Positions 5,840-24,712 of a stretch of 64,000 nucleotides of DNA are shown here, in pieces. Both the position numbers and the translations under genes were made by a program. Location: positions 1-64,000 of the forward strand of contig CAXXIN010000019.1 of the NCBI GenBank assembly GCA_963665275.2, read 5' to 3'. The first letter of the stretch is position 1. Each line of letters starts with the position of its first letter. Origin of the DNA: Negativicutes bacterium (GTDB lineage: Bacteria; Bacillota; Negativicutes; UBA1444). Below the pieces are notes generated by a model. The model was not told the DNA's origin and made no database searches. It worked only from the letters and a program-made list of their open reading frames with translations.

Positions 5840-5883
5840 CTCGGTTGTCCCCTACCAGAGAGGATTCTTGATCATAAAGGGTC

Positions 5884-6471
5884 TTATCGACAAACGATAA
5901 GACCCTTTTCCGTCATTAGATATTGCATCTTAATATCGTGTTCTTCTTCAGGAAGCTTATTTTCCAGCTGACATTCCCATGCCATTCCAATCAATACACT
6001 GTCGATGGCTTCCGGCAAGAAACGGTCATAGTACCCTGCACCGAGTCCCAGACGGTTTCCACTCCTATCAAAAGCTACAGCAGGGGTCACTACCATTTGG
6101 ATTGACGAAGGCAAAACGAGCCTGGACGTTTCCGGGTTCGGCATTTTCAGTCCATACTTCCCGACGATCAGATCATCCAAACTCGTGATTTCGGCTGCAG
6201 TCATTTCCCCGTACTTTTCTCCCAAGAGCGGCACACAGACTTGTTTTCCACGTCTTAGAGCATCTCCTATCATTCGTTCTGTCTGCACTTCCTCTGACAT
6301 TGCCAGATAAAACATGACCGTTTCACACCGATGATATATTGGCCATGAACAGAAACAATCCGCAATCTGATTGCTCCACGACGTCACCTGCACTGCCGAG
6401 AGGTTCCGTCTTATTTTTCTCATGTCGCAACGGATGCGCTGTTTTTCTTCTTTTAAGGATTCTTGGATCAC
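5884..6471 (-). CDS. fthC: 5-formyltetrahydrofolate cyclo-ligase
   Basis: K..IR N-terminus, GKYGLKMP, TPAVAFDRSGNRLGLGAGYYDRFL, EEHDIKM; start uncertain (GTG 6471 or ATG 6525). Confidence 0.9.
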   Translation of the reverse strand: MIQESLKEEKQRIRCDMRKIRRNLSAVQVTSWSNQIADCFCSWPIYHRCETVMFYLAMSEEVQTERMIGDALRRGKQVCVPLLGEKYGEMTAAEITSLDDLIVGKYGLKMPNPETSRLVLPSSIQMVVTPAVAFDRSGNRLGLGAGYYDRFLPEAIDSVLIGMAWECQLENKLPEEEHDIKMQYLMTEKGLIVCR

Positions 6472-6529
6472 GATTAACCGTCCCCATTCCTCAGTTGAAT
6501 TTGCATAATTCTTTTCATATAGCATCTTA

Positions 6530-6934
6530 TTATGCTATAAAATCAGCTTCGCTGACCTCAATGCATGAAGTTTGACTTTCCCATAGTGCTACATTTTCAA
6601 GTTTGAGGTTATATTCTTGGCATGCTTCCTGTAAAATTTCATAGAAATAACCTGCAAGATTTTCTGAAGTGGCTGTAAAACTTAATACTTCATTTAACAC
6701 CTTATGATCTACTTTATCAAGTACAACTTCTTTCACAATTTTACTGAACTCCAAAAAATCCAAGACCATACCACCGCTGGATCCTCCAGAGATTGTTCCA
6801 CCATCTGTCCTTGAAATCTCAACTTCCAACTTATAAGTGTGCCCATGCATATTGGCGCATTTGCCTAAGTGATCCGGCAAGAAATGGGCTGCATCAAAAG
6901 TAAATATTTTCTTTGCTTTATATTTCAGCTTCAT
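6530..6934 (-). CDS. queD: 6-carboxytetrahydropterin synthase (PTPS-I/QueD type)
   Basis: FDAAH, CANMHGHTY (CxxxHGH), GMVLDF, DHKVLN, TSENLA, LWES. Confidence 0.88.
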   Translation of the reverse strand: MKLKYKAKKIFTFDAAHFLPDHLGKCANMHGHTYKLEVEISRTDGGTISGGSSGGMVLDFLEFSKIVKEVVLDKVDHKVLNEVLSFTATSENLAGYFYEILQEACQEYNLKLENVALWESQTSCIEVSEADFIA

Positions 6935-6975
6935 CTGTTGATGCCCCCCCTTCTTCTAAATCATTGCAACGTGCT

Positions 6976-7752
6976 CTAGTTGCTCTCATAATGTCGTGCA
7001 TAAGCACTATGATTATGTATTGATTCGAAGTTTTCACATTCAATATCAAACCAATCAATCTTTTCCTGCCCTCGTAGTGCAAGCACCGAGTCTCTAATTA
7101 CGTCTTCAACAAATTTCGGATTATCATAAGCGGACTCTGTTACGAACTTTTCATCCTCGCGTTTTAACAATGAGTAAACTGGCGAGCTGGCTTGTCCCTC
7201 AATCAGCCTAATCACGTCTTCAATCCATAAGAAATTGCCGGGTCGAAATTTTACCTTAACCTTAATATTACTACGCTGATTATGGGCTCCGTATAAAGAA
7301 ATCTCTTTGCTGCAAGGACAAAGAGAAGTTGTTGGTATAGATACGCTTAAGACAAATTGAAAGTCTTCTCCCAATTCACATGAAAAAAGGCAGTTGTAAT
7401 CCAATAGACCAGATAATCCACTTACCGGAGCTGCTTTTTCTAAAAAATATTTAAATCCGAGATCAATATGCGTTCTTTGAGCTCCTGTTCTATTTTGTAT
7501 GTCTTTGAGTATTGCCTGCAATTCTTTGATGGAAATCGGTTGCCGGCTCCATTGATTTAACACTTCAATGAATCGGCTCATATGCGTTCCTTTAAATTGA
7601 TGAGGTAAGTCCACCGTTAATTTGATTTCTGCGAGTACCGATTGAAATTTTCCATTCTTCATTCTGATTATATATGGCAAATAAACATCTTTAACCCCGA
7701 CTCGCTGCAAAGCGATACCACGTTCATCACGAAATGTTTGTACGTCTTTCAC
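6976..7752 (-). CDS. folE2: GTP cyclohydrolase IB
   Basis: MKDVQ, KGTHMSRF, TSLCPCSKEIS, GAHNQRS, LLKREDEK, NPKFVED, ESIHNHSA. Confidence 0.95.
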   Translation of the reverse strand: MKDVQTFRDERGIALQRVGVKDVYLPYIIRMKNGKFQSVLAEIKLTVDLPHQFKGTHMSRFIEVLNQWSRQPISIKELQAILKDIQNRTGAQRTHIDLGFKYFLEKAAPVSGLSGLLDYNCLFSCELGEDFQFVLSVSIPTTSLCPCSKEISLYGAHNQRSNIKVKVKFRPGNFLWIEDVIRLIEGQASSPVYSLLKREDEKFVTESAYDNPKFVEDVIRDSVLALRGQEKIDWFDIECENFESIHNHSAYARHYESN

Positions 7753-7837
7753 TTCGCCTCTCCCACCATTGCTTAATATCCAAAGAACTCCTTGCTTCGT
7801 TTGTTTCTCCTGCTTTCACTCCGAATATTTTCCTATC

Positions 7838-8704: not shown

Positions 8705-8803
8705 CGTTCCTCCTAGAAAAGTTCAGTAGCACATAAACCTGTCACTTTGTCCCACATTGTAAAATAACAAGCCGTCAATGATGTTTAAAAAGGTACTTCG
8801 TTC

Positions 8804-10150
8804 TCACGATTTTTGCATCAGTGCATATTCTTTTGATTTAACAGCTTCGCTTGGGACAAATTTCTTATTATTCAGTGCAAATGTAATGAACAGCCCTAGC
8901 AGCAAAAGTGCAGAAGCGGACTGAAAAGTGTACTGAGCAGCCTGTTTGTCAAAATTATCTTTCAAAAAAGCTACGATCTGAGGGCCGACAATGCCGGCGC
9001 ACCCCCACGCCGTCAAGATGGTTCCGTAAACGACCGGCATGAGTTTCGAACCGAATGTGTCAAGAATAAATGACGGCATCGCTCCAAACCCGCCACCATA
9101 ACAGAACAGGATATAACAGACGAGTACGCCGAATAGGATCGGATCATTGACGAACAACAATCCGATAAAAACAACTAGCTGACTGCCAAGGATCAAACGA
9201 AAAGTCTGGACACGGCCGATCTTGTCGGAAAGCCATCCCCAGGAAAAGCGACCTGCACCGTTAAAGATGGAACTAACGGCAATCAGTGTTGCACCGGCAT
9301 CTGCCAGTCCTGCAATAACTTGGGGGTCTCCCAGCATAGCCGGGTCCATTATTTTCTTTAGCAGGTCCTGCAGCAGAGGAGACTGGAACCCGATGAATAT
9401 GATGCCGGCAACGATGTTGAAGAAGAACACGGTCCACATCATCAAGAATTTACTGGATAAGATACACTGTCTGGCGGTAATTTCAGCCTGGGAAATCTGC
9501 GCTCCAGTTGACGGTGCTGGGGGAACATAACCATACGGCACAAAACCTGCGGGCGGGTTAACCATAACATACCCGGCAGGCAGAGTAATGAGCAGCATGA
9601 TCACACCGACATAGGAAAACACCATCACCAGATTGCCGTCGGTCATAGACATGAATACCGGAGCCAGAACCTTGGCCATCAGAAGTGCGCCGAATCCGAA
9701 ACCCATGACAACCATACCGGTGATGAAGCCCTTTTTGTCAGGAAACCACTTGGCGGCGGTTGCTACCGGGGTTACATAACCAAGACCCAGACCTATGCCG
9801 CCGATAACTCCGTAACCGATATACAATAGCGGTAAGTTTTGGAGATGGAGCGCATAGGCAGCGATCAAGTAGCCAAGGCCAAATAATAACCCACCGGTCA
9901 TGGCCAATTTTTGCGACCCGAACCGAGGGAGGTTGACGCCGCCCCAGGCGGCAGCCAACCCCAAAAAGAAAATCGCCAGACTAAATACCCAAGCAACCTG
10001 GGTGTTGGACCAGCTTCCGGCAGCCATTACAGGTTGTTGAAAAAAACTCCAGGCGTAAACAGTACCCAGTGCAATCTGCAGCACCGTTCCCATGATGGCT
10101 ACCAGCCACCGATTCGGAATGATTTGTTGTTTCGTAGTCATTATTTCCAT
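8804..10150 (-). CDS. OFA-family MFS transporter (oxalate:formate antiporter-like)
   Basis: GTVYAWS, KWFPDKKG, GFGFG, FNGAGR..WG..SDKIGR, CYGGGFG.MP. Confidence 0.88.
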   Translation of the reverse strand: MEIMTTKQQIIPNRWLVAIMGTVLQIALGTVYAWSFFQQPVMAAGSWSNTQVAWVFSLAIFFLGLAAAWGGVNLPRFGSQKLAMTGGLLFGLGYLIAAYALHLQNLPLLYIGYGVIGGIGLGLGYVTPVATAAKWFPDKKGFITGMVVMGFGFGALLMAKVLAPVFMSMTDGNLVMVFSYVGVIMLLITLPAGYVMVNPPAGFVPYGYVPPAPSTGAQISQAEITARQCILSSKFLMMWTVFFFNIVAGIIFIGFQSPLLQDLLKKIMDPAMLGDPQVIAGLADAGATLIAVSSIFNGAGRFSWGWLSDKIGRVQTFRLILGSQLVVFIGLLFVNDPILFGVLVCYILFCYGGGFGAMPSFILDTFGSKLMPVVYGTILTAWGCAGIVGPQIVAFLKDNFDKQAAQYTFQSASALLLLGLFITFALNNKKFVPSEAVKSKEYALMQKS

Positions 10151-10165
10151 CCCTTGCTCATCCGC

Positions 10166-11833
10166 CTAGAAGAGACCGACGATCTTTCCTCTATTGTCGA
10201 TATCCATGACTTCAGCTGCCGGGCGTTTGGGCAGACCGGGCATGGTCATGATTTCGCCACAGATTGCGATCAAGAATCCTGCCCCGGCAGATACCCGCAC
10301 TTCCCGCACCGTAATCTTAAAGCCGCTGGGACGTCCGAGTTTTGTCGCGTCATCTGTGAGGGAGTATTGTGTCTTGGCCATGCAGATCGGGGTCTTGTCG
10401 AAGCCGAGAGTTGTCAGTTCAGCGATTGTTTTCGCTGCAGAAGCAGTATAGTCGACACCCGCCGCTCCATAAATTTCTTTGGCAATGGTCTCAATTTTTT
10501 CTTTAATGGGCTGTTTCACATCGTATAAGAAACGGAACTGCTTAGGTTTATCCATGGCTGCCAGCACTTTTTTCGCCACAGCTTCGCCACCGGCGCCGCC
10601 TTTGGCCCAAACTTCCGACAAGGCCACTTCGGCGCCCAGCGCCTGGCACTTTTCTTCCACGAACACCAGTTCGTCTTTGGTGTCGGTGGGGAAAGCGTTG
10701 ATGGCAACTACGGCCGGCAGGCCGAATTTACTGATATTTTCGATATGCTTGGTCAAATTATCCATCCCTTTTTCGAGCGCCACCATGTTTTGTTTGCCGA
10801 GATCGGCCTTTGGTACGCCCCCATGAGACTTAAGTGCTCTCACAGTGGTTACGATGACAACGACGTCCGGCTGGAACCCCGCGAAACGACATTTGATATC
10901 GCAGAATTTTTCCGCTCCCAGGTCAGCGCCGAATCCCGCTTCGGTAACAAGAATATCCGCCATTTTGAGGGCGAACTTTGAAGCCATGACGCTGTTGCAC
11001 CCATGAGCTATATTGGCAAAGGGACCACCATGAATAAACGCGGGAGTGTTTTCCAACGTTTGAACCAGATTGGGTTTGATAGCATCTTTGAAAAGGAGAG
11101 TCAGGGCTCCAGCCACTTTGAGATCGGCGACAGTGATTGGTTTATTATCGTATGAGTAAGCAACGATAATTTTATTTATCCGTTCTTTCATGTCGTCCAA
11201 GTCGGATGCCAAACAAAGAATTGCCATCATTTCTGAAGCCACTGCAATATCAAAGCCGCCTTCGCGGGGAATGCCGTTCGCTTTACCGCCCAGACCGAGA
11301 ACGATCTGCCGCAGTGCCCTTTCGTTCAGGTCCATGACCCTCCGCCAGGTGATACGCCGAGGATCAATGTTCAGTTCATTGCCGTGGTGGATGTGGTTGT
11401 CAATGATCGCCGCGAGCAGATTGTTGGCGGTAGAGACAGCATGGATATCTCCAGTAAAATGCAGATTAATATCTTCCATCGGCACGACTTGCGCATAACC
11501 ACCGCCAGCTGCGCCGCCCTTGACGCCGAAACAGGGACCGAGGGAAGGTTCCCGAAGCGCGATAACCACTTTCTTGCCGAGCTGGCGCAGGGCATCGCCA
11601 ATACCAACAGTATTAGTGGTTTTTCCTTCACCGGCCGGAGTCGGATTGATGGCCGTAACCAGCACCACTTTTCCGTTAGGTCGGTTTTTGATTCGTTCCC
11701 AGACATCCAGTGAAACTTTAGCCTTATATTTTCCGTAAAGCTCAAGATCATCTTCAGAGAGACCGAGCTCGATGGCCACCTGTTTGATTGGCTTCATTTG
11801 GGCGGCTTGAGCGATTTCGACATCAGTTTTCAT
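10166..11833 (-). CDS. fhs: Formate--tetrahydrofolate ligase
   Basis: [63 protein letters not shown]. Confidence 0.97.
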
Positions 11834-11844
11834 TTCGACCCCCC

Positions 11845-12714
11845 CTACTTTATCTTGTGTTGTATTTTTGTTGCGATTACCGTATTGAAGAGCAGCATAG
11901 CAATGGTCAGCGGTCCGACTCCGCCAGGAACAGGAGTGATCGCTCCGGCAATCTCTTTGACTTTTTCAAAATCGACGTCTCCGACAAGTTTTTCACCGAG
12001 CCTGTTGATACCTACGTCGATTACCGTTGCACCCGGCTTCACCATATCCGAGGTAACGAAATTGGGTTTGCCGATGGCCGCGACCAGAATATCGGCCTGG
12101 CGTGCAACTTCCGGTAAGTTTGCAGTGCGGGAATGGCAGACTGTGACGGTCGCATTGCGTGTCAGCAGCAAATTGGCCATAGGCTTGCCGACGATATTGC
12201 TCCTGCCAATGATAACCGCTTTTTTCCCTTCAATCGGTATGCCGCTGATCTCAAGCATCTTGATTACGCCGTGTGGAGTACAGGGAACCAGTCCTTCCCT
12301 GCCGATCGACAAATTACCAACATTCAACGGATGAAATCCATCGACATCCTTGTCGGCGCGTATATGGTCAAGGACATTTTCGGTATTAATATGTTTGGGT
12401 AGCGGAAGTTGAACCAGGATACCATTAATTTCAGGGTCTTGGTTCAATGCAGTTAGTTGTTCCAACAGTTCGGCTTCGCTGCTATCCGCAGACATTCGGA
12501 TAACCAACGAATGGATCCCACAATCCTCACATGCTTTGTGTTTGCGCCCGACATACACTTTGGAGGCTGGATCTTCTCCTACAATGATTACTGCTAGGTC
12601 AGGAGTCAAGTTGTATTCAGCCTTAAGAAAGGCTACATCCTTTTGGGTTTCCTCCCCAATTTTCCTGCTTATCAACTTTCCATCAAGAATTATTGAACTC
12701 AAGTTTGTTGTCAC
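11845..12714 (-). CDS. folD: Methylene-THF dehydrogenase/cyclohydrolase
   Basis: [44 protein letters not shown]. Confidence 0.96.
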
Positions 12715-12729: not shown

Positions 12730-13989
12730 TTATTTGTCATCAAATGCGCCAGAAGGATATAACGGGAAGCGGGAAATCAACGCCTCTGCCTTTGCCTTGC
12801 AATCATCGATGTTTGCTTGATCTTCAGGTGCATTGGCAACTTGATTCATGATTCCTGCGATCTCAACAACTTCAGCCTCTTTTAACCCCCGTTGGGAGAT
12901 GGAAGTCAGGCCGATGCGAACGCCACTGGTGACAAAGGGGCTTGCTGGATCAAATGGAATCATATTTTTATTGACAGTGATCCCCACTTTCTCAAGTGCT
13001 ATCTGAAACATTTTACCGGTTATCCCTTTAAGACGAAGATCTACCAATACAATATGGTTGTCCGTACCGCCGCTGACAATGCGAAACCCGTGTGAAGTCA
13101 ATTCTTGCGCCAATTTTTTCGCATTAATGACGACTTGCTCCATAATCGCACGAAACTCAGGGGTGCCAACGTATTGCAATGAAAACGCTTTTGCTGCAAT
13201 AGTATTGAGATGGATAGAGCCTAAAGATCCCGGGAAAACACCTTTATCAAGTTTTTTGGCATGTTCCGCTTTGCATAGGATAAGACCGCTTCTCGGTCCG
13301 CAAAAAGTCTTGGTTGTCGAAGAAGAAACAAAGTCAGCATAGGGAACCGGGCTTGGAATTACACCTGCGGCTACCAACCCTGCAACATGCGCCATATCAA
13401 CCATCAGGTACGCGCCAGTTTTTTTAGCAATGTCGCTCATCCGCTTATAGTCAATTAAGCGCGGATATGAACTTCCACCTGCAATGATTAATTTGGGCTT
13501 GAATTCATCAGCGAGTTTTTCCAGCGCATCATAATCAATCTGCTCCGTTTGGGGATCAACACCGTAGAACTGGTAGTTATATACTTTTGAGAGAAAGTTC
13601 ACAGGACTGCCGTGAGTCAAGTGCCCACCTTGGTCAAGCCGCATGCTCAAAACGTTGTCTCCAGGGATCAGTATCGCCGCATATACGCCGTAATTGGCAG
13701 TTGAACCGGAATAAACTTGCATGTTTGCATGTTCAGCACCAAAAATCTTCTTTGCCCGCTCGATAGCCAAGGTTTCAATACGATCCGCTATTTGCGACCC
13801 TGCTTGAAAGCGAGCTCCTGGATAACCTTCGGTGGTCTTGTTGGTGAAAACACATCCACTTAATTCCATAACTTCGAGAGGCGCCGTACTTTCTGAAGCA
13901 ATCATTTCGATATTGTGTTCCTGACGATTCAGTTCAGCAGCAACAATTTCGTATACTTCAGGATCGGAAACATGTGTATTTTTCAGCAT
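12730..13989 (-). CDS. Divergent serine hydroxymethyltransferase-family enzyme, probably alpha-methylserine (D-alanine 2-) hydroxymethyltransferase
   Basis: SHMT fold motifs (GGHLTHG, DMAHVAGL, SGGTDNH, NKN) with non-canonical NKTTEGYPGARF, SSSTTKT and GSIHLN. Confidence 0.8.
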   Translation of the reverse strand: MLKNTHVSDPEVYEIVAAELNRQEHNIEMIASESTAPLEVMELSGCVFTNKTTEGYPGARFQAGSQIADRIETLAIERAKKIFGAEHANMQVYSGSTANYGVYAAILIPGDNVLSMRLDQGGHLTHGSPVNFLSKVYNYQFYGVDPQTEQIDYDALEKLADEFKPKLIIAGGSSYPRLIDYKRMSDIAKKTGAYLMVDMAHVAGLVAAGVIPSPVPYADFVSSSTTKTFCGPRSGLILCKAEHAKKLDKGVFPGSLGSIHLNTIAAKAFSLQYVGTPEFRAIMEQVVINAKKLAQELTSHGFRIVSGGTDNHIVLVDLRLKGITGKMFQIALEKVGITVNKNMIPFDPASPFVTSGVRIGLTSISQRGLKEAEVVEIAGIMNQVANAPEDQANIDDCKAKAEALISRFPLYPSGAFDDK

Positions 13990-14081: not shown

Positions 14082-15233
14082 TTATTTAACCGCTCTTTCG
14101 CTAGGTCCATCACTGGATTGCTCAATCAATTGGCCCCACGGCGCGTAGGGCAATTTCAAGGCTTCCGCAACAGCCTTAAAAGTTACCTGCCCATTTACAA
14201 CATTAAGCCCTGTAGCAAGACCTTCGTTATCCTGAACCGCCTTTTTCCAACCCTTATTGGCAATTTGCAACGCATATTCTAAAGTAACGTTGGTCAATGC
14301 AAAGGTGGATGTACGCGCAACTGCGCCAGGCATATTAGCTACAGAATAGTGGACAACTCCATGTTTGAGAAAAACGGGATCGCTGTGAGTCGTAATGCGG
14401 TCAATGGTTTCTATCGATCCGCCTTGGTCAATCGCAACATCAACAATTACCGAGCCTGGACTCATGGTCTTTACCATTGTTTCGGAAACAAGTTTGGGGG
14501 CTCTGGCGCCCGGCACCAGTACTGCACCTATTAAAAGATCTGCCTTTGCAACCCATTTGGCAATATTGAAGCTATTGGACATTACAGTGGTTACTCGGCC
14601 CCCAAAAATATCGTCCAGATAAGCCAACCTTTCTGCTGACTTATCCAGAACTGTAACTCTAGCTCCCATACCGATCGCCATTTTGGCAGCGTTGGTTCCT
14701 ACGACGCCGCCACCCACAATAACCACTTGCGCAGATTCAACGCCAGGAACACCGCCAACCAATATTCCTTTTCCACCATAGTATTTTTGGAGATATTGCG
14801 CCCCGACCTGTATGGACATTCGCCCAGCAACTTCACTCATGGGCACGAGCAAGGGCAGAGCACGTCTTTCTTCAATAGTTTCGTAGGCAATACCGGTTAT
14901 TTTCTTAGCAAGTAGCGCTTTTGTCAATTCAGGCTCCGGTGCGAGATGCAAGTAAGTGAATATGATTTGGCCTTCCCTAAACAACTCGTATTCAGCTGCC
15001 AACGGCTCCTTAACCTTGATAATCATGTCAGCTGCAGCATATACCTCTTTGGCTGTTTCTACGAGCTTAGCGCCGGCATCTGTATACTCATCATCAGTAA
15101 TCCCGCTACCCATTCCGGCATTTTTCTCTAGGTAAACGGGATGACCCGCTTTTTGCATTGCTTGAACCCCGGCTGGAGTTATGCCTACACGGTTTTCATT
15201 GTTTTTTATTTCCTTAGGACATCCAATAATCAT
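14082..15233 (-). CDS. ald: Alanine dehydrogenase
   Basis: [53 protein letters not shown]. Confidence 0.96.
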
Positions 15234-15272: not shown

Positions 15273-15290
15273 TTGCAAGTCCCATGCCAA
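15273..15290 (-). promoter_or_regulatory. sigma54 -24/-12 promoter for the ald-glyA-like-folD-fhs operon
   Basis: TTGGCATGGGACTTGCAA on the minus strand. Confidence 0.8.
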
Positions 15291-15524: not shown

Positions 15525-15567
15525 TGTAATAAACGATGTCCTGAATTTCAGGACATCGTTTATTACA
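15525..15567. repeat. Perfect 21-bp inverted repeat (terminator-like)
   Basis: tgtaataaacgatgtcctgaa-t-ttcaggacatcgtttattaca. Confidence 0.85.
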
Positions 15568-15691: not shown

Positions 15692-16204
15692 TCACTTGCT
15701 AAGCCCCATAAAGCTCAAAACAGCACGAGTCATAAACATAACTACAATCGCATCTACCACTGGAACGCACAAAAGAAGGGAATGCCATTTTTTATTCACG
15801 TTCGACACAATTACAATTCGAACAAAATGACCAATAAGTGTTCCCATCGTTATGCATGCTGGAAAGAGAATCGTGGCTTGAACATCGGTAATAACGCCTT
15901 TTGAATACAGCGATGCCGCAGTAGCACATCCTGCCGCTTTTGCAAAGAATGCTGCAACCAAAGCAACGACTGCTTCTCCCGGCAAACCAAACACTGCCAT
16001 CACCGGACCTACCATTTTACCTATTATAGTCATCAATCCGGTAATTTCTAAAAACGCCACCAGAACATAAGCCAAAACCATTGCCGGAGCAACCAATTCC
16101 ACTCCTACATAAAATCCTTTTTTTGCGCCTGACACAAATTCCTCTACTAGACTGGGTTTAATATTTTGGAAATCCAGCGTGCTATTTCCAGTCTGTTCAG
16201 CCAT
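15692..16204 (-). CDS. YjiG-like gate-domain membrane protein
   Basis: EFVSGAKKG, P.MVLAYVL, PVMAVFGLPGEA; overlaps upstream partner. Confidence 0.8.
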   Translation of the reverse strand: MAEQTGNSTLDFQNIKPSLVEEFVSGAKKGFYVGVELVAPAMVLAYVLVAFLEITGLMTIIGKMVGPVMAVFGLPGEAVVALVAAFFAKAAGCATAASLYSKGVITDVQATILFPACITMGTLIGHFVRIVIVSNVNKKWHSLLLCVPVVDAIVVMFMTRAVLSFMGLSK

Positions 16205-16856
16205 TTGCGGCACCCCCTTCCATAGTCTTTTTGGCCACAACCCACTTAATATATGCACGAACCAAGTTTGCCCCAATGATTTTGACAATAAAAATCAACA
16301 GTATTATAATCCCTACTGGTAATACAGTAATTGGAAGTAAGGGTCCTCCTGTACCAAAGGTATTTGCGATCGGAGCCGATCCGGCATATTGGTAGGCGAC
16401 AAATATTGCTCGTTCCTCTTCAGTCATCATTTTGTCCTCAACCAACCCTTTTGTCATGACTGCACCTACATCAGAGCTCGTAAAACTGCTGACAAACGCC
16501 AGCCCGCTTGCGCCTGGAATCCCCATAACAGGGCGTAAAATGGGACGAAATATTATTTCTGCGGCACGTAAAGCTCCCAAAGATTCTGCAACTTGGATGG
16601 CCCCCAATGCGAACATAATCGTCGGAATAAGTGTCAATGCAAACATGAACCCCTCACGTGCACCGGCGCCGCCTTTTCCGGTAAAAATTATTCCTTTGGC
16701 GACTTCGCCGAAGTTTCCTGTTAGGACCATAAAATCCAGCGCTCGCCAAGGAGCCTCCGCCTTCCCAAACACGCCTGATAGTGATATGACGAGAATGGTC
16801 AACGACAACCATCCTTTCCACGTCACTTTATACTCTTCCTTGGTTTTTTCCGACAT
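16197..16856 (-). CDS. YjiH-like nucleoside-recognition (gate) membrane protein
   Basis: LDF..L.G.FG, GKGGAGAREGFMFALTLIP, RPVMGIPG, SSDVGA. Confidence 0.8.
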   Translation of the reverse strand: MSEKTKEEYKVTWKGWLSLTILVISLSGVFGKAEAPWRALDFMVLTGNFGEVAKGIIFTGKGGAGAREGFMFALTLIPTIMFALGAIQVAESLGALRAAEIIFRPILRPVMGIPGASGLAFVSSFTSSDVGAVMTKGLVEDKMMTEEERAIFVAYQYAGSAPIANTFGTGGPLLPITVLPVGIIILLIFIVKIIGANLVRAYIKWVVAKKTMEGGAANG

Positions 16857-16922
16857 CTCTATCCCTCCATGCTTCTCTGTATATATCAACCATAATATTG
16901 ACCATCGACAGTTCCAAATCAA

Positions 16923-18074
16923 CTACAAAGCATTAATCGACAAAGCCAACAGCTTTGCCCTTTCCACTAGGCTATCGATCAGAATATATTCTCTGTCGGA
17001 GTGGTTGAATTCCCCCATTGCGCCCATGGAACACAAGGTTGGCGCACCCGCGCGGACTGTCCAGCCGGAATCCGAAGAGCCTCCTCCGACCTTGGATTTA
17101 ACGTCAATTCCCAAAAAAGCTCCTTGTTGTTTCACGATTTCATAGAGCCATAAATTTCCATTTGTAACTTCCATTACCGTCATATTTTCCCGAAGATTGA
17201 CAACCTCCGCGCTTGTTCCTGGCACATGGATATGACTTGCTATTTGTTTTAAATTCTCAATCCCCTTGTCTCTGTCGAGAGCTGTCAAATATCGCATATC
17301 TATTGTGATTGAAGCGCTATCCGGTACCGCATTTGCTACGGTACCCCCAATAATAACTCCCGGATTAAAAGTTAATCCCTTCTCAAAATCAGTTAATTTA
17401 TTTATCTCGATAACCTTATGAGATAACGCAACAATAGCATTGGCTCCCTTTGTCAGGTCAGCGCCGGCATGTGCGGACACACCTTTTACAACTATTTTGG
17501 GATGCATGTTTCCTTTTCGTCCTACCAAAACTGCCTGGCCGGCACTCGCAGTCTCCATATTAAAAACCGCAGCCTTCCCTTTCGCTTCTTGTTCAAATAA
17601 ATCTGCAGCATTGGTCTTCGGATGATTTGTTTCTTCATCGCCACAGAAAAAAACGGTAATATTTTTGTCGTCCCATCCAGAAACATATAATGCCTCCAGT
17701 GCGAATAATGCTACTGTAATTCCGCCTTTCATATCCAGCACGCCCGGACCAAACGCTTTTCCATCTTTGATGGTGAAAGGCCTGGCCGCAACGGTGCCTT
17801 TAGAGAAAAGAGTATCCATATGACCGATAATCATGACTTCCTTGTCGGTGCTACCTCTTTTTTTGGCACGAAGGTGGGTACAGATGCCAGGGCAGTCCAA
17901 ATATTCGACTTCAAAACCCATCTCCGAGAGCTTGTCTCCGATGATTCCGGCAACTTGGGCGATCCCCTCTGGATTATCAGATCCTGAATCGATATTGACC
18001 AGCTTTTCCAAAAATCTTTTCATTTCTTCATTTTGGGTGTCAATCGCTTTTATTACCTTATCCACAGTTATCAT
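16923..18074 (-). CDS. M20A metallopeptidase (carboxypeptidase G2-like)
   Basis: LVNIDSGS, GHMDT, GPGVLDMKGG, DEE, AHAG, GGGSSD, HS.REY. Confidence 0.9.
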   Translation of the reverse strand: MITVDKVIKAIDTQNEEMKRFLEKLVNIDSGSDNPEGIAQVAGIIGDKLSEMGFEVEYLDCPGICTHLRAKKRGSTDKEVMIIGHMDTLFSKGTVAARPFTIKDGKAFGPGVLDMKGGITVALFALEALYVSGWDDKNITVFFCGDEETNHPKTNAADLFEQEAKGKAAVFNMETASAGQAVLVGRKGNMHPKIVVKGVSAHAGADLTKGANAIVALSHKVIEINKLTDFEKGLTFNPGVIIGGTVANAVPDSASITIDMRYLTALDRDKGIENLKQIASHIHVPGTSAEVVNLRENMTVMEVTNGNLWLYEIVKQQGAFLGIDVKSKVGGGSSDSGWTVRAGAPTLCSMGAMGEFNHSDREYILIDSLVERAKLLALSINAL

Positions 18075-18203: not shown

Positions 18204-18220
18204 TGCAATAATTGTGCCAA
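18204..18220 (-). promoter_or_regulatory. sigma54 -24/-12 promoter for the M20A-yjiH-yjiG operon
   Basis: TTGGCACAATTATTGCA, a perfect consensus match. Confidence 0.85.
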
Positions 18221-18393: not shown

Positions 18394-18447
18394 ATTATTT
18401 CTAAGACGTTAATTATTATTTCTAATAATTAACGTCTTAGAAATAAT
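18394..18447. repeat. Perfect 25-bp inverted repeat downstream of alr
   Basis: attatttctaagacgttaattatta-tttc-taataattaacgtcttagaaataat. Confidence 0.9.
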
Positions 18448-18463: not shown

Positions 18464-19657
18464 TCATTTTAATTGTTTCTTCCAACCATTGAGACGATCT
18501 TCAATTCGAATATCACCTTTATATTTGAACACGCGAGGAACGCGAGCGCTTATACCGGTTAATATTTCATACGATATTGTTCCTGTCTGATTCGCCAGGT
18601 CATCCGCCGAGATAGTTTCTCCGCCTTGTCGCCCAATTAGGATTGCCTCATCCCTCACCTCAGCAGCCTCCACCTCAGTAACATCAACCATCAACTGGTC
18701 CATGCAAATCCTTCCAACGATAGGCGCCTTGCGTCCTCGTATAATTACACTGCCGCAATTTGATAATAATCTAGGGTATCCATCTGCATATCCTACAGGT
18801 AATGTCGCTATGACCGACTCCCGCTTGGTAACATATGTACAGCCATAACCGATGAATGATCCGGCAGCGATTCTTTTAATATGTGCGATGTGTGTAATCC
18901 AAGATAAGGCGGGACGCAAATCAATTTCGTGTCGTACCTCCTGAGAAGGATAATATCCGTATAAACTAATTCCTTGCCGAACCATATCAATATGTGCCTT
19001 TGGTAAATCAATAATGGCAGCACTATTTGATATATGCTTCACAATGTTGTTAAATCCAGCCGTCTGCATTTCTGCGACTCCTCTCGCAAATACTTCATAT
19101 TGAGCCATTGCATAAGTTTTATCTTCTGCATCGGCTTTTGCAAAGTGGCTGAACACGCCTTCCACTTTGACATACTCCCGGTTATCAGCCAACACCTTAA
19201 TTAATGCTGTTAAATCAATACCTGGCCTCGCACCAAGTCGATTCATCCCGGTTTCGATCTTTACGTGAACAAGAGCCGTTTTTTTTAAGTCTTTCGCGGC
19301 GCGCGATAGGGCATTTACGATTTCAATCGATGACACTCCTTGAGTTAAATCATACTTGATTACGTCATAAGCTCGATCAGAAAAAGTTGCCCCTAAAATA
19401 AGAATTGGTTTTTGTATGCCATGCTCTCGCAAAAATATTCCTTCTTCCAGAATGGCTACACTAAGATAATCGACGCCATTTTCGCAACAAGCCTTACTCA
19501 CCTCCAACGCACCATGCCCATAGGCGTCAGCTTTAACCACTGCCATGATTTTGGTTTCCTCTGCAGTTAACCTTGTAAGTTCGCAAAGATTGTGGATGAT
19601 ATTATCCACTTCAACAATGACAAAGGTGGGTCTTATTCCCTTCAATGACATTTCCAT
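18464..19657 (-). CDS. alr: Alanine racemase
   Basis: AVVKADAYGHG (PLP Lys), HVKIETGMNRLG, IGYG (catalytic Tyr), GYADG, GRICMDQ. Confidence 0.95.
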   Translation of the reverse strand: MEMSLKGIRPTFVIVEVDNIIHNLCELTRLTAEETKIMAVVKADAYGHGALEVSKACCENGVDYLSVAILEEGIFLREHGIQKPILILGATFSDRAYDVIKYDLTQGVSSIEIVNALSRAAKDLKKTALVHVKIETGMNRLGARPGIDLTALIKVLADNREYVKVEGVFSHFAKADAEDKTYAMAQYEVFARGVAEMQTAGFNNIVKHISNSAAIIDLPKAHIDMVRQGISLYGYYPSQEVRHEIDLRPALSWITHIAHIKRIAAGSFIGYGCTYVTKRESVIATLPVGYADGYPRLLSNCGSVIIRGRKAPIVGRICMDQLMVDVTEVEAAEVRDEAILIGRQGGETISADDLANQTGTISYEILTGISARVPRVFKYKGDIRIEDRLNGWKKQLK

Positions 19658-19834
19658 ATTAATTCCATTCCTTTCTAGACAATTAGTCTCTATTCAAACT
19701 TTTAATTTAATAAGCAATTATCATACCAACCTTATATACAACATCTGTTTTCACTTAACTATCCTACGATATTTTTGCAATATGTCTAAAAAAAACAGCC
19801 TACCACTAAAGGTAAGCTATTTCAAAAACCATCG

Positions 19835-21679
19835 TTAAAATTTCTTGTGTCTTGTTTTTTCCCGCCCATCGTCAATATCGATAATAGGTCCTGTAATTTT
19901 TATATCTTGTGCTGCAGTATCAAGCTCCATCAATTTACGATACAACGAAGGAAGGCTAATCCCTAATTCCTTTGCTGCCGCTTCCTTGCCTCTGGCATTC
20001 CAACCATAGCGATTCAACGCATCTGAAATCTGGTTATATTCATACTGCCGCACTTTATCCTTGAGAGTGATTTTCAACGGTAACTGTTCACGAATTCGCT
20101 TAGGCAGACTAGTTTCTCGGATATAATTGCTACTCTCGATATTTACCGCGTATTCGACAGCATTCTCAAGCTCCCGCACATTACCCGGCCAGGAATAGTT
20201 GCCAAGTATCTCAAGGGCGGCAGCAGTAAAGTCGACGACTTCTTTCTTCAACTTAAGTTTATATTTCAGCAAGAAATATTTGCTGAGCATAATAATATCC
20301 TTACGCCTCTCGCGCAAGGGAGGTATGACAATTGGGATAACATTAAGCCGATAGTATAAATCCAGGCGAAACTCTTTCAGGCGGACTTTTTCCTCCAGTT
20401 CTTGGTTCGTCGCCGCGATTATTCTGATATCCAAAGGAATTGTTCGTTCTCCGCCAACTCGATCGAAGTTTCGTTCCTGCAAAACTCTCAGCAACTTAAC
20501 CTGAAGGTGAAGCGGCATATCGCCAATTTCATCCAGAAATAGCGTGCCACCATCAGCCAATTCAAACTTTCCTTGCTTTCCGCCCTTTTTGGCGCCTGTG
20601 AAAGCGCCCTGTTCATAGCCGAAAAGCTCACTTTCCAGAAGCATTTCAGGAATGGCAGCACAGTTGATAGCAATAAATGCATTTTTCCCCCGAGAACTAG
20701 CGGAATGAATGGCGCGCGCCAAAATTTCCTTGCCTGTCCCACTTTCTCCTTGAATTAAAATTGTGGAATCGCTTTGCGATATTTTCATGGCTTCCTGCTT
20801 GATCTGGATAATTTCATCACTTTCACCAATAAAGGACTCAAATGATGTGTCGCCATTCATGCCGACGATCTCATTAACAACCGTTCGAATATCGCGGATA
20901 TCCGTAAGACTGAGCACGCCGCCGGCAATTACCATTTCACTGTAAATCGGTTTTATGGAGATTAAGCAATGAACAGGCGCCTTCCCTGCAAAAATGTGTT
21001 CTTGATGTTTAATGCTATTTCCCGCCTGAATAAATTCAACAATATTTTTCCCAGTCACAATCTGATCAATAAAACAACTTAACAATTTATCGTTCGAGAC
21101 CTTTAGCAACTGTGAGGCCACCTTGTTCGCATGAGTAATTTTCCCGGTATTATCAAAAGTGATAATACCGTCATTGATAGAATCCAGAGTCGTTTCTATC
21201 AAACTGTTAATTTGCTTGACCCACTCGGTATGTTCTTTTTCCCGAATCTTACTTACTAACATTTGTGCCATCTCGTGAATGAACTCCAAGAGTGGGTCAA
21301 TTTTTCCTATCAGACGATAGCGCTGTTCTTCGTCAAAAGCCACCATACTGATGACGCCAATTACTGTACCATCCATCTCGATGGCACATAAAACTTCGGC
21401 GGTTTCCGGGCACTGCCCTTCCAACCGGCAACCCTGGCAATAAATAAAATGACCCGGACTTTTGCAAACTACCGTTTTTTCTGTCATTACAGCATCGATA
21501 AAAGGTTTATGAGGCTCGTAGATTTCTTCCGAATCCTTAACCTTAGCTTCGACATACCCCTTACTGGAAGCTATCAACGCAGAGTCAGCATCCATGATAG
21601 CCACTTCAACCCCTAATGCTGCGGAGATAGCCGCAACCGTATGACGAGCAGAATCTTGAATGTTGCGAAGCTTGGACAT
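19835..21679 (-). CDS. sigma54-dependent enhancer-binding protein (GAF-like, PAS, AAA+, HTH)
   Basis: GESGTGKE, NCAAIPE, GAFTGA, LFLDEIGDM, WPGNVRELEN, C-terminal HTH; N-terminal CxxC-x5-C. Confidence 0.93.
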   Translation of the reverse strand: MSKLRNIQDSARHTVAAISAALGVEVAIMDADSALIASSKGYVEAKVKDSEEIYEPHKPFIDAVMTEKTVVCKSPGHFIYCQGCRLEGQCPETAEVLCAIEMDGTVIGVISMVAFDEEQRYRLIGKIDPLLEFIHEMAQMLVSKIREKEHTEWVKQINSLIETTLDSINDGIITFDNTGKITHANKVASQLLKVSNDKLLSCFIDQIVTGKNIVEFIQAGNSIKHQEHIFAGKAPVHCLISIKPIYSEMVIAGGVLSLTDIRDIRTVVNEIVGMNGDTSFESFIGESDEIIQIKQEAMKISQSDSTILIQGESGTGKEILARAIHSASSRGKNAFIAINCAAIPEMLLESELFGYEQGAFTGAKKGGKQGKFELADGGTLFLDEIGDMPLHLQVKLLRVLQERNFDRVGGERTIPLDIRIIAATNQELEEKVRLKEFRLDLYYRLNVIPIVIPPLRERRKDIIMLSKYFLLKYKLKLKKEVVDFTAAALEILGNYSWPGNVRELENAVEYAVNIESSNYIRETSLPKRIREQLPLKITLKDKVRQYEYNQISDALNRYGWNARGKEAAAKELGISLPSLYRKLMELDTAAQDIKITGPIIDIDDGREKTRHKKF

Positions 21680-21830
21680 GGACCTACCCCCTTCATACGT
21701 TTTTATTCTAATCTTTGCTGGGGCTAAACACAACTTGTGCAACACAAAAATTCAGCGCGCCAAGAATTGCTGCATGCAAGATTAGTCGATATGTTTCGAC
21801 CAGAAAACCATATAAATAATGAGGTGTAGG

Positions 21831-21909: not shown

Positions 21910-22902
21910 CTACCTTAAAAAGGCATCACGCAATAGTGGGGCATATAATGAATCGTCCAATAGAAACGCATCGTGCCCATACACTGAATGAACCATGAAA
22001 GTCTCAGGTGTTTGTCCAATTGTGAACCGGATAATGGTTTCCTGTATGATGGCAGGTGAAAACAGTTTGTCCTCCGAACAACCGACAATCATGACTGACG
22101 GCTGGGTTGAAAAAGGCGAAGGTCGGCAATCAAAATCCATCATAGCGTGAAGAAATCCCAGATAACTGTATGGATTAAAACGCATGGAAAAAGCATCCGC
22201 TTCTTGCGAAAGCCACTGGGTCAACCGCCATGAGGGGTCGCCCACCGCAAGCTGTTGGAAGTATTCTTCATCCAGATAAGCCAGCGTCGCCAGTTGCCTC
22301 GCCAATCGCAACCCACGAAACTCTTCCTGCCTGATCATATCCGCCTGGACAGACATTAACCCATATCCGGTGTGCGATACTCGAGCACCGGCATTGAGGC
22401 ATATAGCCGCGCCTACCTTATCAGGATAAGACGCTGCCCAATGAAGGGCCGCCATGCCACCAAGGGATCCGCCGATCACGGCCCGCCATACTTCGATTTC
22501 CAGTTCCTTCTGCAGTTCATGCTGGCAAAACACAATATCGGCTATCGTCGGAAAAGGAAATGATGATCCGAGCTGCTGCCCGGTCTGTTTGTTCACCGTT
22601 GTAGGACCGGAACTACCGAAACAACTGCCTAGGTTATTGGCGCAAACCACGAAGTATTGCAAAGTATCCAGCGCCAAACCCGGCCCAACCGCCCAATCCC
22701 ACCATCCGGGTTCATCGTCTTCAGTGTGTCGGGCCACATGGGAATTGGCCGAGAACCCATGAATAACCAAAATAGCGTTGTCCCTGGCTTCATTCAGTTG
22801 TCCGTAAGTTTCATATACTAATGTGACCTCGTCGATAATCCCCTCATAACGGGCCGGTATTGTATCGGTCGAAAAGGTGCGGAGATTGTGATGGCCCAGC
22901 AT
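21910..22902 (-). CDS. MetX-family alpha/beta-hydrolase O-acyltransferase (divergent)
   Basis: YETYGQLN..RDNAILV, GWW...VGPG, NNLGSC.GSSGP, GGSLGG nucleophile, GHDAFLL. Confidence 0.85.
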   Translation of the reverse strand: MLGHHNLRTFSTDTIPARYEGIIDEVTLVYETYGQLNEARDNAILVIHGFSANSHVARHTEDDEPGWWDWAVGPGLALDTLQYFVVCANNLGSCFGSSGPTTVNKQTGQQLGSSFPFPTIADIVFCQHELQKELEIEVWRAVIGGSLGGMAALHWAASYPDKVGAAICLNAGARVSHTGYGLMSVQADMIRQEEFRGLRLARQLATLAYLDEEYFQQLAVGDPSWRLTQWLSQEADAFSMRFNPYSYLGFLHAMMDFDCRPSPFSTQPSVMIVGCSEDKLFSPAIIQETIIRFTIGQTPETFMVHSVYGHDAFLLDDSLYAPLLRDAFLR

Positions 22903-24083: not shown

Positions 24084-24265
24084 ACTGCACCTCTGCTTAC
24101 GTTATTTATTTGTATACCCAATGACAGTCCTCAGTTGGGAACTTATAACCGGCAGCAATGGCCGTTTTTCTCGCATTACGATTTATCTTCGTTATCACAT
24201 TTGTGCAACGCTCTTAATGTTAGGACAGGGCCTCATGTACCTAACCCACGTTGTCCTGTCCCCTG

Positions 24266-24712
24266 CTAAATTATTCCTTGCGCACGCAATACTGTTTCGG
24301 CAATAATAACGGCGAACACGAAAGTCCCCGTATACACCGCTAACGCGACTACCACGATTCGCCATGACATTTGTTTAATCATTGGCAAATCTTTACCCAC
24401 TGCCAACCCGGCATAGGCTAAAATGGGGGTTGCAATTGCCATGAATTCCATTTTGTTAGTATAGTCCAAAACAATCTTATTAACGGGTGAAATAGGCGAT
24501 GTAGAAAGCAATGAGATAAGTGAAATCCAGAACACCATAGGGAGTTTTATCGGAAAAAATTCAGATAGAGCCATACCAAGGAGCGTAATACTCACTAACA
24601 TTAGATAACCGATTAGCGCCACATCCCAAGGCAATTTGTAACCGATTGTGTTACCAATAACCGCAATGATGCCTGCTACGATGAATATGACTACAGACTC
24701 TTTCCATTTCAT
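24266..24712 (-). CDS. Small membrane protein, partner of the DUF3100 protein
   Basis: TM helices; ATPILAYAGLAVGKDL, YTGTF; ATGA overlap with upstream gene. Confidence 0.75.
   Translation of the reverse strand: MKWKESVVIFIVAGIIAVIGNTIGYKLPWDVALIGYLMLVSITLLGMALSEFFPIKLPMVFWISLISLLSTSPISPVNKIVLDYTNKMEFMAIATPILAYAGLAVGKDLPMIKQMSWRIVVVALAVYTGTFVFAVIIAETVLRAQGII

What the first reader, a model, noticed from the sequence alone, without database searches (positions are those of the whole stretch)
12730..13989. GlyA paralog with the active-site changes of alpha-methylserine hydroxymethyltransferase
Canonical SHMT has NKYAEGYPGKRYYGG, TTTHK(PLP)T and QGGPLMH. This protein has NKTTEGYPGARFQAG, SSSTTKT and LGSIHLN. 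From my recollection, characterised alphaproteobacterial alpha-methylserine hydroxymethyltransferases have NKTLEGYPG.RFHGG, TTTKT and QGSLHSN. The same three substitutions appear here: Tyr to Thr, His to Thr before the PLP lysine, and GPLMH to SxHxN. Extra changes (ASES for ASEN, VYSG for PHSG, FCGPRS) suggest a distinct subfamily and a possible biocatalyst for alpha,alpha-disubstituted amino acids.
Basis: partly seen in the sequence, partly recalled or inferred. Interest (0 to 1): 0.8.

Follow-up and report, generated by a model that had tools for sequence, protein, structure and literature searches.

The report
Methylserine-type SHMT variant in alanine operon
This gene encodes a serine hydroxymethyltransferase look-alike whose substrate pocket carries the changes that let related enzymes handle 2-methylserine and D-amino acids, and it sits in an operon that could turn such a compound into pyruvate, formate and ATP.

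Summary
On the minus strand, 12730-13989 encodes a 419-aa SHMT-family protein with NKTTEGYPGARFQAG, SSSTTKT and LGSIHLN.

The window protein has Thr52 and Gln62 where E. coli GlyA has Tyr55 and Tyr65. Published work ties these two positions to acceptance of D-Ala and D-Ser.

It belongs to a well-supported clade of anaerobe proteins, separate from canonical GlyA. Eight of 10 other carrier genomes also have a canonical SHMT.

Across 90 non-redundant loci of this clade, 23 have D-serine ammonia-lyase, alanine racemase or alanine dehydrogenase within 10 kb. None of 34 canonical loci does.

Here the gene lies in ald-SHMTv-folD-fhs-MFS, next to alr and an M20 peptidase with a transporter. A sigma-54 activator and three sigma-54-type promoter matches lie upstream.

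Best reading (about 0.55): THF-dependent cleavage of a 2-alkylserine to D-alanine plus methylene-THF. No assay exists, the natural substrate is unknown, and Gln replaces the family's His.

The parts
12730..13989 (-). SHMT-family variant (SHMTv, 419 aa): Thr52, Gln62, Thr226-Lys227, Gly257-Ser258
   Evidence: PF00464 scores 462.5 bits. An RBS precedes the ATG at 13989.
14082..15233 (-). Alanine dehydrogenase, first gene of the ald-SHMTv-folD-fhs-MFS unit
   Evidence: TIGR00518 scores 548 bits against a cut-off of 392. A 92-nt gap separates it from SHMTv.
15274..15289 (-). Sigma-54 -24/-12 promoter-like site (TGGCATGGGACTTGCA, 1 mismatch), 41 nt before the ald ATG
11845..12714 (-). FolD (methylene-THF dehydrogenase/cyclohydrolase)
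   Evidence: It abuts the SHMTv stop codon.
10166..11833 (-). Formate--tetrahydrofolate ligase (Fhs)
   Evidence: NF010030 scores 932 bits against a cut-off of 652. An 11-nt gap follows folD.
8804..10150 (-). MFS monocarboxylate transporter (L-lactate / oxalate-formate type)
   Evidence: NF049980 scores 335.5 bits against a cut-off of 320. A 15-nt gap follows fhs.
15692..16922 (-). Two Gate-domain membrane proteins (16197-16922 and 15692-16288), a putative transporter
   Evidence: Homologues at 73% and 71-72% identity sit next to an M20 gene and a second SHMTv copy in L134.
16923..18074 (-). M20 metallopeptidase/amidohydrolase
18204..18219 (-). Sigma-54 promoter match (TGGCACAATTATTGCA), 130 nt before the M20 start; the only 0-mismatch match in the 64 kb
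18464..19657 (-). Alanine racemase
   Evidence: TIGR00492 scores 383.8 bits against a cut-off of 168.
19713..19728 (-). Weak sigma-54-like site (2 mismatches), 56 nt before the alr start
19835..21745 (-). Sigma-54-dependent activator (PAS, AAA+ and HTH_8 domains), followed by a hairpin plus T-run
22902..25518 (-). M20 amidohydrolase (22902-24083), 148-aa protein (24266-24712) and DUF3100 protein (24709-25518). Possibly associated: the same trio lies beside SHMTv elsewhere.
5884..7752 (-). 5-formyl-THF cyclo-ligase, PTPS and FolE2. These folate genes lie downstream on the same strand and are possibly associated.

Best explanation
SHMTv is a PLP- and tetrahydrofolate-dependent hydroxymethyltransferase whose donor pocket is opened by Thr52 and Gln62, which replace Tyr55 and Tyr65 of GlyA. 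As a result it accepts a serine with a second substituent on the alpha carbon.

Proposed pathway in this operon:
1. SHMTv cleaves 2-methylserine, or a close 2-alkylserine, to D-alanine plus 5,10-methylene-THF.
2. Alr converts D-Ala to L-Ala.
3. Ald oxidises L-Ala to pyruvate and ammonium.
4. FolD and Fhs convert the C1 unit to formate with one ATP.
5. The MFS carrier exports a monocarboxylate.
6. The M20 hydrolase and the Gate-domain transporter may supply the substrate from an acylated or peptide form.
7. The sigma-54 activator switches on the three transcription units.

Shown here: the residues, the clade, the gene order, the promoter matches and the context statistics. Inferred: the reaction, its direction, the substrate and the regulation.
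For: 1. Residues.
- Window Thr52, Gln62, Thr226-Lys227 and Gly257-Ser258 align with E. coli Tyr55, Tyr65, His228-Lys229 and Gly-Gly.
- Five proteobacterial mSHMT-type genes have Thr/His/Thr/GS at these sites. They include the TRIS cluster II gene; that cluster, cloned in E. coli, degrades 2-hydroxymethylserine.
- Papers, read as passages or one section: Tyr55/Tyr65 versus Thr60/His70 set donor specificity, and a Y55T SHMT accepts D-Ala and D-Ser. PbzB Thr68/His78 enlarge the pocket.

2. Clade.
- The window's group (20 rows) plus a sister group (6 rows) form one clade with SH-aLRT 100, apart from 28 canonical rows.
- 8 of 10 other carrier genomes also hold a canonical SHMT.
- In the window's class, hits of 69% identity or more occur in 5 of 301 genomes.

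3. Context.
- Of 90 non-redundant clade loci, 23 have DsdA (20), Alr (4) or Ald (3) within 10 kb. With at least 3 kb of flank on both sides the figure is 19 of 42. Canonical loci give 0 of 34.
- The common cassette is AgcS-SHMTv-HK-RR-DsdA. It parallels mSHMT-dsdA-folD-purU-dsdX in the TRIS cluster.

4. This operon.
- ald, SHMTv, folD, fhs and the MFS gene are separated by 92 nt or less.
- Sigma-54-type sites on the correct strand lie in each of the three intergenic gaps.
- A second FolD-Fhs pair exists on contig C13, so this pair looks dedicated to the operon.
Against: - No enzyme of this clade has been assayed.
- The Tyr65 position is Gln in all sequences of the window's clade that I tabulated, whereas every characterised relative has His.
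- The Alr/Ald arrangement is rare. 5 of the 90 loci have Alr or Ald within 10 kb (4 Alr, 3 Ald, with overlap).
- In the window's own motif subtype (Thr53-Gln62-SIHLN), 23 of 25 sequences have none of the tested neighbours within 6 kb. Three of them sit beside arginyl-tRNA synthetase, a housekeeping setting.
- Two carrier genomes (G032, G035) show no other SHMT, so the variant may keep Ser/Gly activity. PbzB does act on glycine and L-serine.
- This assembly has no second SHMT hit.
- No natural source of 2-methylserine in such habitats is known to me.
- Sigma-54 pattern matches overall are not above chance: 50 found against 38 expected.
Confidence: 0.55

Rival explanations
1. SHMTv is an ordinary, perhaps catabolic, L-serine/glycine hydroxymethyltransferase. 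Serine gives glycine plus methylene-THF. FolD and Fhs then yield formate and ATP. Alr and Ald belong to a co-regulated but separate alanine branch.
For: - NCBIfam NF000586 scores 520.9 bits against a cut-off of 335, so annotation pipelines name it GlyA.
- The PLP lysine, Glu54, the NKN stretch and the TSGVRIG stretch are kept.
- It is the only SHMT hit in G000, G032 and G035.
- Some loci are housekeeping-like.
- G000 has a glycine-cleavage T protein.
Against: - Both tyrosines of the YAEG--RYY motif, which the authors call crucial, are replaced (section read).
- PbzB, with Thr/His at these positions, has a kcat on L-serine 4200-fold below GlyA.
- 8 of 10 other carriers keep a canonical copy.
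- In genus g5, 16 of 17 genomes have no SHMT hit at all, so the one carrier does not show the variant is needed as the housekeeping enzyme.
- This reading does not explain the link to DsdA, Alr and Ald, which is absent from 34 canonical loci.
- G000 lacks the whole prfA-sua5-glyA-upp-atp region, so its missing canonical glyA is uninformative.
Confidence: 0.2
2. The enzyme acts directly on imported D-serine or D-alanine. Examples are a D-serine-specific retro-aldol reaction giving glycine plus methylene-THF, or a racemase- or transaminase-like half-reaction. It would be part of a D-amino-acid scavenging locus fed by the M20 hydrolase.
For: - AgcS-type carriers, DsdA, Alr and Ald are the partner genes.
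- G000 has an M20 paralogue (72% identity) directly beside DsdA on contig C15.
- The Y55T change lets SHMT bind D-Ser and D-Ala.
Against: - With the carboxylate-binding stretch TSGVRIG kept, bound D-Ser would present its alpha-H, not its CH2OH, for cleavage. This is my own reasoning from the known stereochemistry.
- DsdA or Alr plus Ald already dispose of the free D-amino acids, so the enzyme would be redundant.
- SHMTv is the constant member of the cassettes, while the D-amino-acid enzyme varies.
Confidence: 0.12
3. It is a THF-independent aldolase or transaldolase acting on beta-hydroxy amino acids, such as a methylserine aldolase or an L-threonine transaldolase.
For: Such enzymes are also SHMT homologues (passage; one search lists a weak fluorothreonine transaldolase hit).
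Against: - TIGR04506 scores 95.4 bits against a cut-off of 650.
- FolD and Fhs follow in the same operon, and FolD or Fhs lies within 10 kb in 9 of 90 clade loci.
- The NKN and Glu54 stretches are kept. Their role in folate binding is recalled, not tested.
Confidence: 0.05

Closest known systems
Alpha-methylserine hydroxymethyltransferase (EC 2.1.2.7) of Paracoccus, Aminobacter and Ensifer, and the mSHMT of TRIS-degradation cluster II (Pseudomonas hunanensis p1_Teo1)
   Same: - Thr at the Tyr55 position, Phe at Tyr64, Thr before the PLP lysine, and GS for GGP.
- Adjacent FolD and a formyl-THF-consuming enzyme.
- An adjacent enzyme that removes a D-amino acid.
   Different: - Identity to P0001 is 45-50%, no higher than canonical GlyA.
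- Gln, not His, at the Tyr65 position.
- It keeps PFVTSGVRIG where the proteobacterial enzymes have PSEW.G.RLG.
- It has ASES, YSG and FCGPRS changes of its own.
- It uses Fhs (ATP-yielding) rather than PurU, and Alr plus Ald rather than DsdA.
- The ML tree places the proteobacterial group inside proteobacterial GlyA. A single origin is not rejected.
PbzB / FmoH / AsmD-type biosynthetic SHMT homologues (apo PbzB structure 7QWZ)
   Same: A small residue at Tyr55 and a non-Tyr residue at Tyr65. They use mTHF and D-Ala or Ser to make, or in vitro cleave, 2-methylserine and 2-hydroxymethylserine.
   Different: - Those enzymes have TAEG--RYH and sit in NRPS clusters.
- This one has T[TLE]EG--RFQ and a catabolic context.
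- 7QWZ is not among the 60 best of 87 PDB matches.
- I could not fetch their sequences for the tree.
Canonical GlyA (EC 2.1.2.1), for example E. coli 1DFO and Geobacillus 1KKJ
   Same: The same fold and length. 1KKJ matches residues 7-405 with E = 3.8e-129. The PLP lysine and most of the active-site framework are kept.
   Different: Tyr55, Tyr65 and His228 are replaced, and Gly-Pro of the GGP loop becomes Ser-Ile. It forms a separate clade and has a different gene neighbourhood.
Engineered Streptococcus thermophilus SHMT Y55T
   Same: A single Tyr55->Thr change widens donor use to D-Ser, with D-Ala also accepted (passages in reviews).
   Different: It is a laboratory mutant used in the synthetic direction. 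The natural protein here carries several further changes.

Membership tests
SHMT family (PF00464, fold-type I PLP enzymes) | Profile match over the whole length, above the curated cut-off | tested here: met
   462.5 bits against a cut-off of 27, residues 7-380; 1KKJ matches with E = 3.8e-129.
SHMT family (PF00464, fold-type I PLP enzymes) | PLP-binding lysine in the T-x-K-T stretch | tested here: met
   Lys227 aligns with E. coli Lys229.
Canonical GlyA (EC 2.1.2.1) | YAEG--RYY motif (Tyr55, Tyr65) and T-H-K | tested here: not met
   The window has TTEG--RFQ and T-T-K.
Canonical GlyA (EC 2.1.2.1) | Groups with canonical GlyA in a tree | tested here: not met
   it lies in a 26-row clade (SH-aLRT 100) with no canonical row.
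Canonical GlyA (EC 2.1.2.1) | Interconverts L-serine and glycine efficiently; complements glyA | not testable with these tools
   Needs an assay.
Alpha-methylserine hydroxymethyltransferase (EC 2.1.2.7) | Thr at the Tyr55 position (Thr60 in mSHMT numbering) | tested here: met
   Thr52. The feature is named.
Alpha-methylserine hydroxymethyltransferase (EC 2.1.2.7) | His at the Tyr65 position (His70) | tested here: not met
   Gln62 in the window and throughout its clade. The sister clade has His.
Alpha-methylserine hydroxymethyltransferase (EC 2.1.2.7) | Thr before the PLP lysine, and GS in place of GGP. I saw these in all 5 proteobacterial sequences; they are my own criteria, not a published definition. 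| tested here: met
Alpha-methylserine hydroxymethyltransferase (EC 2.1.2.7) | Common descent with the characterised proteobacterial enzymes | tested here: inconclusive
   The free tree separates them. The AU test of one clade gives p = 0.245.
Alpha-methylserine hydroxymethyltransferase (EC 2.1.2.7) | Neighbouring THF-recycling and D-amino-acid-removing genes | tested here: met
   FolD, Fhs, Alr and Ald lie in the same locus.
Alpha-methylserine hydroxymethyltransferase (EC 2.1.2.7) | THF-dependent conversion of 2-methylserine to D-alanine | not testable with these tools
   Needs an assay.
PbzB/FmoH-type biosynthetic hydroxymethyltransferases | Located in an NRPS or natural-product gene cluster | tested here: not met
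   The ORFs I scanned from 5.9 to 31 kb are catabolic, transport, regulatory or folate genes.
L-threonine / fluorothreonine transaldolase | Match to TIGR04506 above its cut-off | tested here: not met
   95.4 bits against a cut-off of 650.

The most novel reading that the evidence does not exclude
Anaerobic Firmicutes and their neighbours carry a previously unrecognised, energy-conserving pathway for amino acids with a quaternary alpha carbon. Carriers include Clostridioides difficile, Eubacterium limosum, Blautia and Synergistaceae.

A Gln62-type SHMT variant strips the hydroxymethyl group from 2-methylserine or 2-hydroxymethylserine, which may first be released from conjugates by M20 hydrolases. 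The D-alanine or D-serine product goes to pyruvate, and the C1 unit yields ATP through formyl-THF.

The pocket changes would have arisen independently of the proteobacterial mSHMTs. That would be a case of convergent active-site evolution, and it would point to a natural pool of such amino acids in guts and sludge.
Probability: 0.35. Interest if true: 0.75.

Novelty: new variant of a known kind. Interest (0 to 1): 0.62.

Why it matters
Databases call this protein, and thousands like it, plain 'serine hydroxymethyltransferase'. If the reading is right, that name is wrong for a whole clade found in gut and sludge anaerobes, including C. difficile.

The clade would then mark a catabolic route for alpha,alpha-disubstituted amino acids. 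2-Methylserine is reported in blood metabolite panels (search listing only), and its origin is unknown to me.

The enzymes would also be natural starting points for making quaternary amino acids. Reviews describe that field as having few SHMT-type catalysts.

The Gln-for-His change and the possibly independent origin give a testable case of how the SHMT donor pocket is retuned.

Tried and rejected

- **Conservation of the window's gene order.** I first looked for the window's own neighbours around 82 homologous loci (80 from genome contigs plus L031 and L032). Ten of the 82 held any of them, and none held the full alr...fhs order. This forced a neighbour clustering from scratch, which found the DsdA, AgcS and two-component partners.

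- **One origin or two.** The AU test of a single clade for all non-canonical groups gave p = 0.245 (after an unfinished run). Neither a single origin nor convergence is shown.

- **A second glyA in the genome.**
  - None was found.
  - 0 of 17 ORFs of the prfA-sua5-DUF436-glyA-upp-atp region of relative G010 has a match above 51% identity in G000, and 13 have no match at all. The absence is therefore uninformative.
  - I laid four runs that hold the window, or share its species label, on that region of the relative. Contigs about 80% identical spanned the upp and glyA genes, but in mixed data I could not assign them to this organism.

- **Expression.** No RNA holder was listed.

- **Glycine reductase.** The search with PF09338 found nothing, but the control rang nowhere, so the result is uninformative.

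- **PbzB.** 7QWZ did not appear among the 60 listed PDB matches, so I could not align it.

- **Characterised sequences.** The Nozaki enzyme sequences, FmoH, AsmD and the methylserine aldolases could not be fetched. Plasmid homologues stood in for the Nozaki enzymes.

- **Papers.** The Nozaki, Hernandez and Wilson-Snell papers were not read; I know them only through citing passages. Supplements are closed: PbzB Figure S11 and the TRIS tables might bear on the motif definition.

- **Structure prediction** was not run, because its output gives no pocket geometry.
Full report
**The gene.** The reported coordinates hold a complete 419-aa ORF on the minus strand. The longest ORF starts at a TTG at 14055. 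Homologues begin MLK.T, and a TAGGAG box lies 8 nt before the ATG at 13989. The protein matches Pfam SHMT (462.5 bits) and NCBIfam NF000586 (520.9 bits against a cut-off of 335), so pipelines would name it GlyA. The best solved relative is Geobacillus SHMT 1KKJ, with E = 3.8e-129 over residues 7-405.

**Are the changes those of methylserine hydroxymethyltransferases?** I could not fetch the characterised Nozaki enzymes, so I used stand-ins.
- A paper on TRIS degradation (PMC10848231, passages read) describes a plasmid cluster II in Pseudomonas hunanensis: mSHMT, D-serine dehydratase, FolD, PurU and DsdX. Cloned in E. coli, it degrades 2-hydroxymethylserine.
- I fetched that gene and four proteobacterial plasmid homologues at 64-82% identity to it: Paracoccus, Ensifer, Mesorhizobium and Ruegeria.
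- In Paracoccus the two key residues are Thr60 and His70. This is the numbering a review uses when it says that Tyr55/Tyr65 of SHMT versus Thr60/His70 of mSHMT govern donor specificity, and that Y55T lets SHMT use D-Ala and D-Ser (PMC6411801, passage; also PMC4761611).
- The PbzB paper (PMC10098953, section 11 read) reports the same pair, Thr68/His78, in enzymes that make 2-hydroxymethylserine. It argues that they enlarge the pocket.
- The window protein has Thr52, Gln62, Thr226-Lys227 and Gly257-Ser258 at the aligned positions. Three of the four changes are shared. The fourth is Gln instead of His.

**A distinct clade.**
- A homology search gave 120 listed relatives at 73-100% identity. Named sources include C. 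difficile, Eubacterium limosum and Sedimentibacter. One UniRef name begins '2-methylserine hydroxymethyltransf...'; the rest say SHMT.
- In 120 distinct SHMT-family sequences, four motif classes appear:
  - canonical;
  - proteobacterial mSHMT-type;
  - a Firmicute 'sister' group with NKTMEGF..R[YF]H and QGS, 56-58% identical to the window protein in that alignment;
  - the window's group with RFQAG, [ST]SSTTKT, [LI]GS and YSG.
- A 59-row ML tree puts the window's 20-row group and the 6-row sister group in one clade (SH-aLRT 100). The five proteobacterial mSHMT-type rows fall inside proteobacterial canonical GlyA (SH-aLRT 98).
- An AU test does not reject a single clade for all non-canonical rows (p = 0.245). 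Convergence is suggested by the tree but not established.

**Is it a paralogue?**
- G000 (92.6% complete) has only this SHMT hit. Each of its 11 same-genus relatives has SHMT hits that score well above the window's 462.5 bits where the gene is whole. The best hits are 503-577 bits in 10 genomes and 369 bits for a fragment in G009.
- In two of those relatives, glyA lies in prfA-sua5-DUF436-glyA-upp-...-atp. None of the 17 ORFs of the G010 region finds more than a 51% match in G000, and 13 find nothing. The region is missing from the assembly, so the absence of a canonical glyA says nothing.
- Runs that hold the window also hold contigs about 80% identical to the upp-glyA stretch, but I could not assign them to this organism.
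- Elsewhere, 3 of 5 and 5 of 5 carrier genomes have both forms. Two (G032, G035) show only the variant.
- In a sample of 301 genomes of the window's class, hits of 69% identity or more occur in 5 genomes, and the next best hit is 55%. In genus g5, 16 of 17 genomes have no hit at all.

**Context across the clade.**
- The window's own neighbours are rarely conserved. De novo clustering of neighbours found a recurrent cassette: AgcS-type carrier, SHMTv, a cupin/PocR histidine kinase, an AraC-type response regulator and D-serine ammonia-lyase. Metagenome loci show the same.
- Variants of the cassette include:
  - Ald-AgcS-SHMTv-DsdA;
  - Ald-AgcS-SHMTv-HK-Alr-RR;
  - AgcS-DsdA-Alr-SHMTv;
  - M20 amidohydrolase-DUF3100-p148-SHMTv;
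  - SHMTv-Fhs-..-FolD.
- Counts for 90 non-redundant loci:

| Neighbour within 10 kb | Loci of 90 |
|---|---|
| DsdA | 20 |
| Alr | 4 |
| Ald | 3 |
| Any of DsdA, Alr, Ald | 23 (19 of 42 with at least 3 kb of flank on both sides) |
| HK / RR | 37 / 38 |
| AgcS | 28 |
| Any M20 | 15 |
| FolD or Fhs | 9 |

- None of these neighbours was found beside 34 canonical loci.
- RidA follows DsdA in 6 loci.
- The closest relative, L134 (86% identical), has two copies. One lies in HK-RR-SHMTv-DsdA-GntP permease. The other lies near homologues of this window's activator (67%), M20 (75%) and Gate proteins (71-73%).
- Against my reading: in the window's own motif subtype, 23 of 25 sequences have none of these neighbours within 6 kb, and three sit next to arginyl-tRNA synthetase.

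**This locus.** All genes are on the minus strand, in this order:
1. sigma-54 activator (19835-21745);
2. alr;
3. M20;
4. two Gate-domain proteins;
5. ald;
6. SHMTv;
7. folD;
8. fhs;
9. MFS monocarboxylate carrier;
10. YitT, FolE2, PTPS and 5-formyl-THF cyclo-ligase.

- Gaps within ald...MFS are 92 nt or less.
- The only perfect match to the sigma-54 pattern in the 64 kb lies 130 nt before the M20 gene. A 1-mismatch site lies 41 nt before ald, and a 2-mismatch site lies 56 nt before alr. All three are on the correct strand and in intergenic gaps. Hairpins end the preceding units. The total count of pattern matches is not above chance.
- Upstream lie an alpha/beta hydrolase, the M20b-p148-DUF3100 trio seen beside SHMTv elsewhere, and a LytS/LytTR pair.
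- G000 has a second FolD-Fhs pair on contig C13.

**Mechanism.**
- By analogy with mSHMT-DsdA-FolD-PurU, the simplest logic is a four-step route:
  1. A 2-alkylserine plus THF gives D-Ala plus methylene-THF.
  2. Alr and Ald take D-Ala to pyruvate.
  3. FolD and Fhs give formate plus ATP.
  4. The MFS carrier exports an acid.
- DsdA-type cassettes would handle 2-hydroxymethylserine in the same way.
- The reaction, its direction and the substrate are inferences. Rivals are an ordinary Ser/Gly SHMT (0.2), direct action on D-Ser or D-Ala (0.12), and a THF-independent aldolase (0.05).

**Prior description.** In searches I found no paper describing this Firmicute clade. Those searches cover only the held library.

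Noticed in passing
window 5884-8704 (-): Downstream of the MFS gene, on the same strand, lie YitT, FolE2-type GTP cyclohydrolase, PTPS and 5-formyl-THF cyclo-ligase. This is a folate supply and repair set next to a folate-dependent operon.
   Followed up: partly
window 21910-28369 (-): An alpha/beta hydrolase, an M20 amidohydrolase, a 148-aa protein and a DUF3100 protein lie here, followed by a LytS-type kinase and a LytTR regulator. The M20b-p148-DUF3100 trio lies directly beside SHMTv in other genomes.
   Followed up: partly
G000 contigs C15:87519-89991, C1:16234-18557, C13:51318-53804, C4:40000-43821: Four paralogous modules lie elsewhere in the genome. An M20 gene (72% identical to the window's) is adjacent to D-serine ammonia-lyase. 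There is a second M20-GateA-GateB set, a second FolD-Fhs pair, and a GcvT / sigma-54 activator-like / Ald (64%) group.
   Followed up: no
G000 assembly versus L132 and L133: The prfA-sua5-DUF436-glyA-upp-...-ATP synthase region of same-genus relatives has no counterpart in G000. Essential genes are therefore missing from this assembly.
   Followed up: partly
L134 7372-8625 and 16026-17282: One metagenome contig carries two variant copies, 86% and 85% identical to the window protein, in two different cassettes.
   Followed up: partly
L213 7940-9151 and L214 14848-16059 (G159): Two further SHMT-like stretches, only 45-47% identical to the window protein, flank the HK-RR-SHMTv-DsdA cassette within about 12 kb.
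   Followed up: no
class survey, genus g5: 16 of 17 near-complete genomes of one genus gave no SHMT hit with this query at E <= 1e-40. The single hit is of the variant type.
   Followed up: no
window about 18398-18443 and 15531-15561 (-): A long AT-rich inverted repeat lies just after alr, and a hairpin lies after the second Gate gene. They may be terminators or activator-binding sites upstream of the sigma-54 promoters.
   Followed up: no
L039 (C. difficile) 3219-11257: The C. difficile copy follows a cupin kinase, an AraC-type regulator, a 362-aa protein with no Pfam match, an M20 amidohydrolase and an AbgT-family transporter.
   Followed up: partly
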